This document shows, in pieces, positions 31,601-37,294 of a stretch of 64,000 nt of DNA. Positions within the stretch are counted from its first letter, which is position 1. Each line of letters begins with the position of its first letter. The notes under the pieces were generated by a model. That model made no database searches, was not told where the DNA came from, and saw nothing but the letters and a program-made list of their open reading frames with translations. The stretch comes from Mytilus trossulus. Lineage: Eukaryota. The translations under genes were made by a program, and so were the position numbers. The stretch spans positions 88,288,001 to 88,352,000 of the forward strand of contig NC_086373.1 in the NCBI RefSeq assembly GCF_036588685.1, written 5' to 3'.

Positions 31601-34600
31601 TATCGACATGTTGAATCATTAGCATATACTTTATTAGGATAACTCTCAGCATGAGGACATGTCACTCCATCCAGACACATTATGCTGACTGTGACTAGAC
31701 TTTAGATTTAAATGCTTTCTGTAATGCAGGGTTTTCTGTAAGTAAATTCGGTCGGGAAAGAAGACAGAAATAGATGTTCTTATGAAAAAGGAATAGAAGA
31801 AAAAAGCAGCTAAATAATGTATATTAATTTTATATTTGAAAAATTAAAACATAATTTAATATACATTGCTATATAAGTATAGTTTTTCTACATCCTGCCG
31901 ACAGTGTTTATTTTGGCATTGCACAATGTCATGCGTGTCTCATGCTGTTTATGGTGTCTTTAAACTTAACCCGATGGATGTGTTCGTTCTGATTGAGATT
32001 TTAGTTTGAGAGAGTACCACTATGATTTATTTTTTAGTTGTAATTTGCAAGAACTAGTTTCCCCTCACTGTGAATACTCTTAGTAATTTTGGAGCGTTTT
32101 TATCTACCTTTTTTTTGTGATCGTTGTTTAAATGTACTGTACTGTTCTGTTCTGTTATGTTGGGCCAATTACAACTGATTTTAAGTGTGTTCTGTTATGC
32201 TGTAACTCATCTGTATCATGTTATGGTAAGGATTAAGCGCGCACACACATATTTAACAAACTTTTATTCTGTATGTGCCTGTCCCAAGTCATATGTCCTT
32301 ATTATAGTTGTTGTAGTTCAGGTTTTATATGCTTTATATATGAATAGGCCGTAAGTTTTATCGTTTTGCCTGTTTCGTATTTTTCTTGCCGTGGCCTTTT
32401 TTAGCCGACTATAAGTACGGTATGGGTATTTCATTGTTAGAGCAAGAAGGTTGCCTCTAATTTTCTTTCTACAACTTTTTTTTAATCACTGCTAGCTATA
32501 TAAGTATTTAATGTAAAGATGTCTTTAACAGTCAGTCGAAAACATGATAGTGAGCAGTGCCAAAATGTAGATATCGAAAGAATGTACTATGTAGAACGTG
32601 AAAGTTCAAAACTGTTTAGAAATAATATTTAATTCCTTGATGATAAAAAAGCAAAGTTTATAAAGATAAACACATCATTCAAAGCCTATTTACAGTGTAC
32701 AATTGGTTTCATTTTAAAATAAGTCTATTTTAAGTTAATTAATGGCTTATAAGAAAACTAAAGAATAAGCAATGTGATCCCCACCAAAAAAGCAAGGGTT
32801 GAATTCAAGTTCTCCTTGAGCAAAATCTATTCCGACTTCACCAGTTGCACCCATTGTGTTAATCAAGACATGTAGAAATTCGAGGATAACATATGTATGT
32901 TATGAATTGGACTAATTCAAAAGTTAACTTCTTTCTTTGTAAATGACGCTACACAGTCTATGGAATTGGGTGTTGGCCAATGTTCAAAACCAGGCAATTT
33001 CTTTATTGCAAAAAAAGGTATTCTTTGTGCTACTCCAATTACCTCTTACAAGTGGCACCTGCATGAAAATGCAGTGGCAACTGCATGAAAATGCAAATAT
33101 CACTTGTACAATATGTGGTGTTTAAAACGCTTATCTGTAAATTTACATGTACCTGTAGTTATACAACCAAGCAATAAATTCTGTAGAATTCCAATATGAG
33201 GACGGTGCTGGGCTTCCATCAGACCATATTAAATCAGGTTTGTAATTATTAACTAACTCATAAAGTTCAGGCATAGTTTTAGTCTGAAATTAAGGAAATA
33301 AAAAGTTAAATTTTAAAAATACTTATCTGCAAGGAAAATTCAAAATGGAAAGTTCCTAATCAAATGGAAAAAATCAAAAGCTCAAATACTTCAAACGAAT
33401 GGAAAACAAAAATTGCTCTTGTTAAGTAAGATGTATGTCATGTTCCTTGTAATTAATCGACGTTCACATTTTCATATAATTTTTTAAAGAGAGTGGTTTT
33501 TTTTTTCTGTTACATGTATAATTTTTGTAAACGGTATAGAATTATGACAAACATCTTTGCACACAGTTATACACATATGGAAATATCTATCTCAAAAATT
33601 GACAGTGCTCGTATGACTTAACCATTTGAAAGCCACGTGGTATATATCTAATAACACAGGTAAACTAAGATTTTATAGTAAAATGTGCTCATCATTTGAG
33701 CATACTTAAGATTTGATATTAAGAAATACACTGCTAACAAAAATTAGAATAAGTGCACATTCACTTGCAATTGAAACCGGGAGGTATAGCAAACCAAACA
33801 TTTTAGCAAGTGAAAGATACTGCAAACTTTGTAAGGATAAAGTGGAAGATAAAGTTCATTTTCTTTTATATTGTCCTCTATATAAAGACCTTCGAGAGAA
33901 GTTTGATATTTTCAAAAACCTTAATAATGATGATGATATTAAATCAACGATTTATTTACTTAACCTAACATCTAATGTCAGTTGGTCTACCGTAAGTATA
34001 ATACTGTGTAATACTGTGATATCATATATATAATTAGTACTTGAAATGTTGTCTTTATGTTGTATTTGCATAAGTTGTCATGTTTAATGTGTTTGAATCT
34101 TGGAATAGGCATTGTATCATATGTGCTTTGTCCAATAAAATATTTGAATTTGAATATACGTGGATACGTGAGGTGCTATATGGCCATAGCACGTAGGATC
34201 AGAAAGCTATGCCGCGGTAGCTGATTTCTAGCTTTTAAGAAATGACAATTATTGTCTAGAATTTCAGTTTTAAACTTATGACTTTAACCGAGAGTTATAC
34301 TGCATAAAGAGTTACCTGCGCCTTTCTCTTTAATATTTATGTTTGTTGTTGTGTATAAACCCAATAAGTAACTCTAAAAGCCAATTTTAAAGGTTGGTGA
34401 AACACAGTGTGATTTTGAGAATAGTTTTATGAATATAAAAATTTAATGAGTGTCCTACATTTGAAACAATCGCATTAAAACATTCAATGTTTTATCTATG
34501 TATATATAATAGTAAAACCAAAATGAGATGAACATAAAATATAAAAGGATAGTTTACTTACTGTCACAAATTCTTGCGTCGTAAAATTATTTGCTTTATC

Positions 34601-37294
34601 TTGAAGAAACAGTGGATTAAACCATTCAAACAAAGAATGGTAAAGTCCAACTCTGAGGTCTTTTTTACGTAGTGATGTAACAAGTTCTCCTTAAAAAGTA
34701 TAAGATACTTTTAAACATCAAAGCATAGAATTGTCTCAGTATATTCACGATTTGGCAATATGAACCGAATTCAATTCGCATCAAAGGAACAAAAGGTGTT
34801 TCTTTCATTTTTCCTTAGATTTGTTTTGTTCAAAAGATTCTTTAATGAGAGGTACTGACACCGCTATATATATGTGTGTATCGAATAGTTATCAAATGTA
34901 CCAGGATTATAATTTTAATTTTAATAATTTTTATCGTAAAACATAGAAAAGTCCGTTTCTTGGTATAAGAAATAAAAAAGTATAAAAACTTGATGCTTTT
35001 TGTTTTAGTCATCAACGCCAAACAAATAATCAGCAAGCATGTGTATTAAATTATTAATATTCAAATATTTTGTTTCGATATCTTTTTGTAAAGCTGAAAC
35101 GAACGTACCTACGATATCCCTTTTTGGACCGACTGCCATAGAATTCCAATTAAAAGAGTGGTTAGAAGGCCACATTGTAAAACCTTCATGATGTTTAGTC
35201 GTAAATACCACATACCTGCAAATAAAAATACAAAATATCGTTTGCAATAACATTATAGTATTTTTCACAAAAGTTTTTAAAGTAGACAAAATTCAGTAAT
35301 GACCAACTAGAGTATAATGACGCAAGAATTTTTTTCTTAATTTGTCTACAAACAAGAGTGCACACACTGAAATATCTCGCCTTCTTTACTTGTTATTGAT
35401 ATTATGTTGATAGTCCTAAATATAAAGCTTTATTACAACTGTCACATAAACTTAAAATTAACCAATAAAACTAAACATTGACCAATCAACCATGAAAATG
35501 ATGTCAAGGTCAGATGAACCATGCCAGACAGACATGTACAGCTAAAAATTCTTCCATACAAAAAATATAGTTGACCTATTGCTTATAGTTTAAGAAAAAC
35601 AAACCATAACACAAAAACTTAACAATGAGCAATGCACTGTGAAAATGAAGTCAAGTTCAAATAAAACCTGCGCGACTTACATATATATCATAAAGTATTT
35701 CCATACGCCAAATATAGTTGACCTAATGTATTTAGTATTAAAAAAAAAAGCAAAACTCAAAATCATAACTTTTGACCACTGAACCATGAAAATGAGATCA
35801 AGGTCAGATGACACCTCCAGCTAGACATGCACATCTAACATTCACCCATAAACCAAATATAGTAAACCAATTGCATACAGTATAAGGAAAACAGATCAAA
35901 ACACAAAAACTTAACTTCAACCACTGAACCATGAATATGAGCTGAAGGTCAGATGACAAATGTCAGTTGGACATGCTCACCTTACAGTCCTTCCATATAG
36001 TGACGAAGAATGAAATCAAATGTGCACTTGGAGGTATAAAGTAATAACGAATTCTTAAAGAACAAGTTTCATACAGTCCTTCCATACACCGAATATACAA
36101 GATATATTGCTTATACCATCTGATATATGAACTTGACCACCAAAACTTAACCTTGTTCATAGATCCATGAAATGAGGTCGAGGTCATGACGGACATGAGG
36201 ACCTTGCAAGGTATGCACATATCAAATATAGTTATCCTATTACTTATAATAAGAGAGAATTAAATTAATCTTATTTTTTTTCCAAGTAGTCATTGAACCG
36301 TGAAAATGAGGTCAAGGACATTGGACATGTGACTGACGGAAACTTCGTTACATGAGGCATTCCATATACAAAGTATGAAGCATCCAGATATGCCACAAAA
36401 TATGCAGGCTCGACAAAAACTGGTTACCATTGATCATATAAAAACTTACATAAGACACAAATCAATTTACATTTAAAAATATTTTCCTTCCGCCTTTATT
36501 GATACAGTATCACGATACCATTCAAATGTTTATTTAATAGTTTGTTAGTTTCAGAAGGTTATTGATTTTTAAACACGGAAACATGCAGTCCAAATATAGA
36601 AGAAACATCAATATTTTATGATTTTACAGCTTGCCAATAACAACCATAGATACATAAGAGGTAGCAATTGTTACAAACGTATTTTTAGAGGGGTCCTCAC
36701 TCAATGACATTATATTGTCTTTAAAGGAGTATTTTTTTTACATGCATATCAAATATGTCAAATTATGTACCTTATTCGCAAAATAACGAATAGCAAATTA
36801 TTGTGAGTAATGTTTTTACATACAACAGAAGTTACACATTATCCGGCTTGATAAAGTTGTGTATCTACTTACTCTGCACCGGATGATTTAAATAGTGATG
36901 CCCATTCATCCGTATCTAAAAACTCAGCTGTTAACATGGGAGCAAAGTCTGGGTACGTGAAACCGGGTCTGTAGTTTTTCTTCATGAACTCTACATATTT
37001 TGGGATCTTATCTCTCTTCCAGAAACACCAAAACCATTCGTCATACACACTAGGAACAGAGTAGACTCCCCAGACAACAAATATTCCTATTTTAGCACTG
37101 TCATACCAAACTGGTAGAGGCCTTTTGTCTAAAGCTTCCCAGTTTGGAGGATACAGTTTATCGCCTTTGTTCCATTGTTTTACGATGTTAAATTCCTCCA
37201 CTATATTCTGACTTTGACTGCTAAGTTCAACTGTGTATGGACATAACAATATCAATATCCACGGTATAATACTAACGTCTTTAGTGGTCAACAT
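28662..37294 (-). CDS. FUCA: Alpha-L-fucosidase (GH29) paralog A, 8 exons, 482 aa, divergent active-site pocket
   Basis: Exons 37294-36873, 35215-35109, 34689-34562, 33283-33153, 31464-31367, 30304-30172, 29766-29596, 28920-28662 (1449 nt, GT-AG, in frame). Signal peptide, [37 protein letters not shown] nucleophile, [22 protein letters not shown]. Confidence 0.93.
28975..29172 (+). mobile_element. Short dispersed repeat (same subfamily as 53398-53590)
   Basis: GGTGTGAGCCAAGGCTCCGTGTTGAAG..CCTATAATGGTTTACTTTT..GGATGGAGAGTTGTCTC; near-identical inverted copy at 53398-53590. Confidence 0.75.
29725..29860. repeat. 68-bp tandem duplication spanning the exon 7 acceptor of fucosidase A
   Basis: Units 29725-29792 and 29793-29860 differ at four positions. 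Confidence 0.9.
30536..30888. repeat. Local ~185-bp tandem duplication
   Basis: ATTGAAGTGAAATAAAAGAAAAAA..GTTTGCTTGATG at 30536 and again at 30721. Confidence 0.85.
30899..31200. mobile_element. Non-autonomous element with a ~157-bp palindrome (31043-31199)
   Basis: Arms AATGACTGTAATATTTTTTCTGTCTA / TAGACAGAAAAAATATTACAGTCATT and GGTGCACACTG / CAGTGTGCACC around AATAACC..GGTTATT. Confidence 0.6.
33655..34155 (+). mobile_element. 3' fragment of a non-LTR retrotransposon (RTEX-like)
   Basis: [37 protein letters not shown]ys/His C-terminal motif; AATAAA then TTTGAATTTGAAT tail at 34135-34155. Clade call is tentative. Confidence 0.7.
35350..36419 (-). mobile_element. HINE-type element with ~145-150-bp internal tandem units
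   Basis: Recurrent AACCATGAAAATGAGGTCAAGGTCAGATGA units; minus-strand 5' end TTTTTGTCGAGCCTGC and 3' end GGCGAGA..GTGTGTGCAC-TCTTGTTT. Confidence 0.7.

What the first reader, a model, noticed from the sequence alone, without database searches (positions are those of the whole stretch)
33153..37294. Fucosidase paralog A has a remodelled substrate pocket but intact catalytic residues
Seen: GIFVVWG where paralog B has GIFIHWG (GTC versus CAC, two changes); EWFWCFW versus EWFWWDW; exon 4 is 131 nt versus 134 in B and C, giving [12 protein letters not shown] instead of WSDG(D/E)WEAxDTYW directly after the nucleophile; also NVAP and NSEAIY at normally Gly positions. Known: the His of the FxHWG motif is a conserved fucose-binding residue in GH29. 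The frame is open, and KHHEG, the nucleophile Asp and the KWE Glu are kept. Inference: neofunctionalised enzyme (different sugar, e.g. modified/sulfated fucose from algal food) or a lectin-like pseudoenzyme.
Basis: partly seen in the sequence, partly recalled or inferred. Interest (0 to 1): 0.7.

Follow-up and report, generated by a model that had tools for sequence, protein, structure and literature searches.

The report
Mussel fucosidase lacking a sugar-gripping histidine
This intact, spliced mussel fucosidase-family gene keeps both catalytic aspartates but has swapped a conserved sugar-gripping histidine for valine in all five named mussel species examined, so it likely cuts a slightly different fucose-like sugar than ordinary fucosidases do.

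Summary
Paralog A is an intact 8-exon GH29 gene (482 aa) in a tandem C-B-A cluster of a Mytilus mussel. His58 (human FUCA1 numbering) is Val74. This change is fixed in five Mytilus species and one more distant relative. Spliced transcript contigs from four studies carry the gene, and dN/dS against its duplicate is 0.20. It is not a decaying pseudogene.

'Remodelled pocket' overstates it. A keeps 11 of the 12 fucose-pocket residues. The WCFW, one-residue loop deletion and NSE changes vary among A's own orthologues. The KWE Glu is not catalytic; the true acid/base Asp276 (Asp291) is kept.

His58 binds fucose O4. Bacterial His-to-Val GH29s are nearly inactive on pNP-fucoside, so a shifted substrate is likely, most plausibly a fucose with a small neutral change at C4. 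Sulfate is disfavoured. The substrate is untested.

A is not unique: 6 of 22 GH29 loci in this genome lack His58 (at least four independent losses), others lack the O2- or O3-binding residues, and the His loss recurs in abalone, a snail and a sea spider. Verdict: new variant of a known family, moderate interest.

The parts
36873..37294 (-). Paralog A exon 1 (422 nt): likely signal peptide (residues 7-17 hydrophobic), Phe72, Val74, Glu86, Trp87
   Evidence: transcript contigs
37073..37075 (-). Val74 codon GTC, at the position of FUCA1 His58 / T. maritima His34 (O4-binding)
   Evidence: Val in all A orthologues
35109..35215 (-). A exon 2 (107 nt): KHHEG, His149/His150 = FUCA1 His133/His134
34562..34689 (-). 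A exon 3 (128 nt): Tyr193 = FUCA1 Tyr177
33153..33283 (-). A exon 4 (131 nt): Trp239, nucleophile Asp241 (33220-33218), and the post-nucleophile loop, one residue short and lacking the entrance Trp
31367..31464 (-). A exon 5 (98 nt): Arg274 and acid/base Asp291 (31382-31380) = FUCA1 Arg259/Asp276
   Evidence: PMC9548408 section 9
30172..30304 (-). A exon 6 (133 nt): structural Glu304 (KWE) and Trp314 = FUCA1 Trp299
29596..29766 (-). A exon 7 (171 nt): Asn348, Ala350 (NVAP), Ser376
29767..29834 (-). 68-nt duplication of the exon 7 acceptor and exon start; out of frame if used; transcripts join at 29766
   Evidence: joint 29766-30172 in 4 of 4 runs
28662..28920 (-). A exon 8 coding part with stop (C-terminal beta-sandwich)
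47582..55308 (-). Paralog B, canonical pocket (12 of 12), 511 aa, identical to P0035
58786..63341 (-). Paralog C exons 4-8; exons 1-3 lie beyond the window end and carry GIFIHWG

Best explanation
Paralog A is an intact, spliced, conserved GH29 gene that keeps the nucleophile, the acid/base and 11 of 12 pocket residues but has Val in place of the O4-binding His, so it is likely a secreted or lysosomal retaining alpha-L-glycosidase whose preferred sugar is a fucose-type residue altered at C4, most plausibly by a small neutral substituent such as O-methyl. Shown: gene structure, residues, conservation, splicing, selection. From the literature: Asp241 would attack C1, Asp291 would protonate the leaving group, and His149, His150, Glu86 and Trp87 would still hold O2, O3 and partly O4. 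Inferred: loss of one O4 hydrogen bond leaves a small hydrophobic gap beside O4, loss of the entrance Trp widens the mouth, and the enzyme likely works in digestion of algal or microbial glycans or turnover of the mussel's own substituted fucoses.
For: Residue mapping to FUCA1 against the 12-residue table of PMC11796335: only His58 differs. The AlphaFold model has pLDDT 91.9 and matches 7PLS at rmsd 0.9 A, TM 0.98. Val is invariant in 14 of 14 A-clade proteins aligned, from M. trossulus, galloprovincialis, edulis, californianus, coruscus and an unnamed 73% relative, and arose on the stem separating A from His-bearing B and C. NG86 dN/dS of A versus its duplicate A2 is 0.20 (bootstrap 0.14-0.30, 372 codons). 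13 of 15 exonic transcript differences that were shown are silent (the table was cut). In exon 1, 6 of 7 differences in codons 46-141 are silent, against 3 of 10 in codons 1-45. Six exon joints were seen in transcript-like contigs, five in 4 of 4 runs and one in 3 of 4. Precedent (PMC9774334 section 11): two bacterial His-to-Val GH29s gave 1.3-2.1 nmol/min/mg on pNP-fucoside, and loss of this His marked the alpha-L-glucosidases. Recurrence: His58 is lost in 6 of 22 GH29 loci of this genome; one clade is rejected (AU p 2.8e-8; 5 changes on the tree); 9 of 115 animal homologues have Ser, Thr, Asn or Val there while His133, Tyr177, Asp225 and Arg259 are kept in 115 of 115.
Against: No activity data exist for A or any animal His-less GH29 that I found. 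His149 still binds O4, so ordinary fucosidase activity may persist. The bacterial Val enzymes had no good substrate among the three tested and could be poor for other reasons. No paper on 4-O-methyl-fucose with diatoms was found (0 papers), so the proposed substrate class is not documented here. A evolves somewhat faster than B over the deeper splits (46 and 49 of 435 differences to californianus and coruscus, versus 36 and 32 of 436 for B), which fits relaxed constraint as well as adaptation. The tissue of expression is unknown and the runs are only guessed to be RNA.
Confidence: 0.45

Rival explanations
1. A is still an ordinary alpha-L-fucosidase, with weaker O4 binding and a different linkage or aglycone preference set by the variable loop after the nucleophile.
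For: 11 of 12 pocket residues are kept, including the second O4 ligand His149 and the C6 pocket Phe72/Trp239/Trp314. The loop at the pocket mouth is the fastest-changing part of the clade. The entrance Trp is absent in all A-clade members but also in 31 of 115 other animal homologues.
Against: PMC9774334 calls this His invariant in characterised fucosidases, and the bacterial Val forms were nearly inactive on pNP-fucoside. Val is fixed across the clade rather than drifting.
Confidence: 0.33
2. A cuts a C4 epimer (alpha-L-glucoside, quinovoside or xyloside) like ClAgl29A/B.
For: The same His is replaced in ClAgl29, and one bacterial Val enzyme slightly preferred L-Glc and L-Gal over L-Fuc.
Against: The ClAgl29 determinants are absent. 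A has Glu86 rather than Asp, Thr146 rather than the Phe that blocks axial O4, and keeps Asn348 and Trp314, which are described as excluding equatorial O4.
Confidence: 0.1
3. A is a catalytically weak or dead fucose-binding protein (lectin-like pseudoenzyme).
For: A bacterial Val enzyme was near the detection limit on all three substrates tested.
Against: Asp241, Asp291, Arg274, Tyr193 and Glu304 are kept in every A-clade protein. The change removes a binding contact, the opposite of what a lectin needs.
Confidence: 0.08
4. A is an incipient pseudogene and the changes are decay.
For: Its duplicate A2 is broken in this assembly, and a dead remnant lies downstream, so the clade does lose copies.
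Against: Open frame in five named species, dN/dS 0.20, mostly silent transcript differences and correct splicing.
Confidence: 0.02

Closest known systems
Human tissue alpha-L-fucosidase FUCA1 (GH29-A, PDB 7PLS/7PM4; PMC9548408, section 9 and passages read)
   Same: Fold (rmsd 0.9 A, 54% identity), Asp nucleophile, animal-type Asp acid/base, 11 of 12 pocket residues.
   Different: His58 is Val; the loop after the nucleophile lacks Trp228 and is one residue shorter; the NIG Gly is Ala.
Coraliomargarita akajimensis Caka_0522 and Caka_0523 (bacterial GH29-A with His to Val; PMC9774334 section 11 read)
   Same: The same substitution at the same site; natural substrate unknown.
   Different: Bacterial. 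Their sequences were not compared here. A's Val arose within an animal tandem cluster, so the match is convergence.
Cecembia lonarensis alpha-L-glucosidases ClAgl29A/B (PDB 7XSF-7XSH; PMC9774334 sections 9 and 11, PMC11368710 first third read)
   Same: Loss of the O4-binding His goes with a changed sugar specificity within GH29.
   Different: They have Asp at the His site, Asp for Glu66, Phe for Thr125 and a repositioned aromatic; A has none of these; 26% identity.
Expanded mollusc digestive fucosidases, e.g. scallop Chlamys farreri Fuca1-8 (PMC5159873, passages read)
   Same: A multi-copy family with pocket variation (Glu66 noted as not conserved) and proposed diet-related specificity.
   Different: The passages read do not mention the His34 site; no enzyme was assayed there.

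Membership tests
GH29 (PF01120 + PF16757), animal GH29-A branch | Catalytic barrel plus C-terminal beta-sandwich | tested here: met
   Pfam 406 and 83 bits; model matches 7PLS with TM 0.98
GH29 (PF01120 + PF16757), animal GH29-A branch | Asp nucleophile (FUCA1 Asp225) | tested here: met
   Asp241
GH29 (PF01120 + PF16757), animal GH29-A branch | Animal-type Asp acid/base (FUCA1 Asp276) and Arg259 | tested here: met
   Asp291 and Arg274
Canonical alpha-L-fucosidase (EC 3.2.1.51) pocket | Two His for axial O4 (His58 and His133) | tested here: not met
   Val74 replaces His58; His149 is kept
Canonical alpha-L-fucosidase (EC 3.2.1.51) pocket | O2/O3 ligands Glu70, Trp71, His134; C6 pocket Phe56, Trp223, Trp299; Tyr177 | tested here: met
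   All seven kept
Canonical alpha-L-fucosidase (EC 3.2.1.51) pocket | Hydrolyses alpha-L-fucosides | not testable with these tools
   Needs an assay
GH29 alpha-L-glucosidases (ClAgl29 type) | His34 site replaced | tested here: met
   Val in A, Asp in ClAgl29
GH29 alpha-L-glucosidases (ClAgl29 type) | Asp for Glu66, Phe for Thr125, no Asn324 | tested here: not met
   A has Glu86, Thr146 and Asn348
Lectin-like pseudoenzyme | Loss of a catalytic carboxylate | tested here: not met
   Both Asp residues are kept in all A-clade proteins

The most novel reading that the evidence does not exclude
Mussels and other algae-eating molluscs have repeatedly turned duplicated fucosidases into a panel in which each copy drops the residue that grips one hydroxyl of fucose: O4 (His58 to Val/Thr/Asn/Ser), O3 (Glu70 to Ala/Val) or O2 (His134 to Gly/Cys). 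The panel would remove O-methylated or otherwise capped fucoses that ordinary fucosidases cannot, and A would be the first animal enzyme for 4-O-substituted fucose.
Probability: 0.25. Interest if true: 0.68.

Novelty: new variant of a known kind. Interest (0 to 1): 0.42.

Why it matters
GH29 enzymes lacking this histidine are known to have other or unknown substrates, and the bacterial Val forms are orphans. A conserved, transcribed animal example sits beside a canonical sister gene (B) that is 67% identical over the mature enzyme, which makes a clean pair for finding the substrate. If the wider pattern holds (only 5 of 22 copies in this genome keep all 12 pocket residues), mussel paralogs would be a ready set of enzymes for substituted fucoses in algal and invertebrate glycans, useful for glycomics and for understanding how filter feeders digest resistant marine polysaccharides. 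All these proteins are now annotated simply as alpha-L-fucosidase.

Tried and rejected
KWE Glu as acid/base: rejected (PMC9548408 section 9). WCFW as a pocket change: rejected; orthologues have WCFW, WYFW or WYRW and neither residue is among the 12 pocket residues. Loop deletion as the founding change: rejected; A2 and the distant P0004 group have a 7-residue loop yet carry the Val. NSE: orthologues have Ser, Tyr or Phe; all non-Gly, but not one fixed change. Covariation of His58 loss with the NVG Gly: not significant (Fisher p 0.14 in animals, 0.23 in representatives); with entrance Trp loss: none, since 8 of 8 scored His-less animal homologues keep the Trp. A link with Tyr/Leu four residues downstream (p 0.007) and with Asn324 in representatives (p 1e-4) appeared, but the rows are not phylogenetically independent. 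A versus B dN/dS is saturated (dS 2.6) and was not used. No listed sequencing run is on record as RNA; transcription rests on contigs that skip the introns, and depth was not used to rank genes. The first 48-row tree was only the quick search; the 27-row tree was the careful one. Gene models of the C1 4.5-4.6 Mb cluster are exon-wise tblastn hits, three of them partial, and may be chimeric beyond exon 1. Zhou et al. 2013 (PMC3792654) on Mytilus internal fucose was not held; I saw it only as cited in two reviews. Literature searches listed no paper on a His-less animal fucosidase or on this gene; subscription journals and supplements were not covered. PMC11189522 (passages) added nothing on this site. 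No complex prediction was run: fucose is not an offered ligand.
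Full report
Gene structure. The window holds three GH29 genes in tandem on the minus strand. A runs from 37294 to 28662 in 8 exons with GT-AG introns and encodes 482 aa. B runs from 55308 to 47582 (511 aa). C has exons 4-8 in the window and the rest beyond its end. A and B are identical to database proteins P0015 and P0035, which the source names Mytilus trossulus fucosidase-like proteins. A has a hydrophobic N-terminus and six N-glycosylation sequons, so it is likely secreted or lysosomal (inference).

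Observation check. Contigs from four studies (runs guessed to be RNA) skip the introns at the modelled boundaries: six joints were shown, five in 4 of 4 runs and one in 3 of 4. Four more runs laid on exon 1 show no change at the first two bases of the Val codon. The Val is real and transcribed.

What changed in the pocket. A aligns to human FUCA1 along its length, and its model (pLDDT 91.9) overlays 7PLS at 0.9 A. PMC11796335 Table 10 lists 12 residues around bound fucose. A keeps 11: Phe72, Glu86, Trp87, His149, His150, Tyr193, Trp239, Asp241, Arg274, Asp291 and Trp314. Only His58, which hydrogen-bonds the axial O4, is changed, to Val74. The acid/base of animal fucosidases is Asp276, not the KWE Glu (PMC9548408 section 9); A keeps both. 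Outside the 12, the loop after the nucleophile lacks the Trp three residues on, which PMC9774334 places at the pocket entrance in related enzymes.

Which changes define the lineage. All 14 A-clade proteins aligned, from five named Mytilus species and an unnamed relative at 73% identity, have VVWG and NVAP. The other features vary: WCFW, WYFW or WYRW; a loop of 6 or 7 residues; NSE, NSD, NYE or NFE. At columns conserved in at least 90% of 115 animal homologues, the four A-clade representatives share changes at six places: His to Val, the Phe four residues later to Tyr, Phe149 to Leu, Ala210 to Ser, the NVG Gly to Ala, and loss of the NGE Gly (B numbering). The trees group A with B and C (99/97) and put the Val on the A stem. 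It arose after tandem duplication from a His-bearing ancestor and before the split of these Mytilus species.

Selection. A duplicate, A2, lies at G000 C1:28.87 Mb. dN/dS between A and A2 is 0.20 (0.14-0.30, 372 codons). This is conservative, since A2 is broken in this assembly by a 2-nt shift in exon 1 and loss of the first half of exon 3, although intact in M. edulis (P0002). 13 of 15 shown exonic transcript differences are silent. In exon 1 the catalytic part has 6 silent changes of 7, and the signal and linker part 3 of 10. Against this, A has diverged a little more than B from californianus and coruscus orthologues (46 and 49 versus 36 and 32 differences), though less than B within the edulis complex (11 and 9 versus 15 and 11).

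Precedent. PMC9774334 used variation at exactly this His to find alpha-L-glucosidases. It also tested two bacterial His-to-Val enzymes, which gave 1.3-2.1 nmol/min/mg on pNP-fucoside and little more on L-Glc or L-Gal. A lacks the alpha-L-glucosidase determinants: Asp for Glu66, Phe for Thr125 and loss of Asn324. A C4 epimer is therefore less likely than a small group on an axial O4. Val is shorter and apolar, and no shared basic residue appears at conserved columns, which argues against sulfate (inference). Mollusc glycans carry branched, substituted fucose and many methylated sugars (reviews PMC8699351 and PMC6994554, passages), but I found no paper documenting 4-O-methyl-fucose in mussel food. 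The substrate is a hypothesis.

A is one of many. The genome search gave 22 GH29 loci (a lower bound). At the His58 site 16 have His, 2 Val, 3 Thr and 1 Asn; 5 lack Glu70; 7 lack His134; 3 lack Trp299; only 5 keep all 12 residues. The His-less copies are not one clade (AU p 2.8e-8; 5 changes counted, at least 4 once the unresolved fork is allowed for). Among 115 animal homologues, 9 lack His58 (four abalone Ser, a snail Thr, a mussel Thr, a mussel Asn, an unnamed Asn, a sea-spider Val) and 12 lack Glu70 (9 of them Ala), while His133, Tyr177, Asp225 and Arg259 are kept in all 115. These His-less proteins fall in scattered places of a FastTree. Among 50%-identity representatives, 83 of 101 scored have His and 4 have Val, with some rows misaligned. 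Changes thus concentrate on hydroxyl-binding residues and spare the catalytic ones, which looks targeted rather than decay (inference; rows are not independent). Mollusc fucosidase expansion with pocket variation at Glu66 was already noted in scallop (PMC5159873 passages); ten searches listed nothing on the His site in animals.

Verdict. This is a real, conserved single-residue change in the sugar pocket of an intact GH29 enzyme, with a looser entrance loop. A likely shifted C4 specificity gets 0.45, a tuned ordinary fucosidase 0.33, a C4-epimer enzyme 0.10, a pseudoenzyme 0.08 and decay 0.02. It is a new variant of a known family. The gene alone is of moderate interest; the family-wide pattern is the better lead.

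Noticed in passing
window 29767-29834: 68-nt duplication of the exon 7 acceptor and first codons of A; using the upstream copy would shift the frame. Transcript contigs in 4 of 4 runs join at the downstream site; whether those animals carry the duplication is unknown.
   Followed up: partly
window 25451-25332 and 24694-24494, minus strand: Degraded remnant of a fourth GH29 copy (exon 1-like and exon 8-like pieces, the latter with a stop), closer to A than to B.
   Followed up: partly
G000 C1:28,875,274-28,893,886 (L013, L014, L033): A2, a recent duplicate of A with the same Val, is broken in this assembly (2-nt shift in exon 1, first half of exon 3 missing, exon 8 match ends after 151 nt) but intact in M. 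edulis P0002.
   Followed up: partly
window 33197-33214 versus A2 exon 4: The A and A2 loops align best with a 2-nt and a 1-nt gap a few bases apart, so the loop may have been rewritten by paired frame-shifting indels rather than one codon loss.
   Followed up: no
G000 C1:4.48-4.66 Mb (L028-L032, L034-L038): A cluster of 9 GH29 loci, many with KHGEG, KHGGG or KHCEG in place of KHHEG and a different post-nucleophile loop.
   Followed up: partly
G000 C11:57.03 Mb (L026) and C1:3.85 Mb (L027): Three intronless GH29 genes (likely retrocopies) with Val in place of Glu70.
   Followed up: no
window 22975-24117, minus strand: 380-aa open frame that reads like the reverse transcriptase end of a LINE element (likeness recalled, not searched).
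   Followed up: no
window about 44720-46900: Long tandem array of a unit of about 30 nt between paralogs A and B.
   Followed up: no
P0008 (euglenid Ploeotia vitrea) and P0271 (sea spider Nymphon striatum): Independent His-to-Val GH29 proteins outside molluscs.
   Followed up: partly
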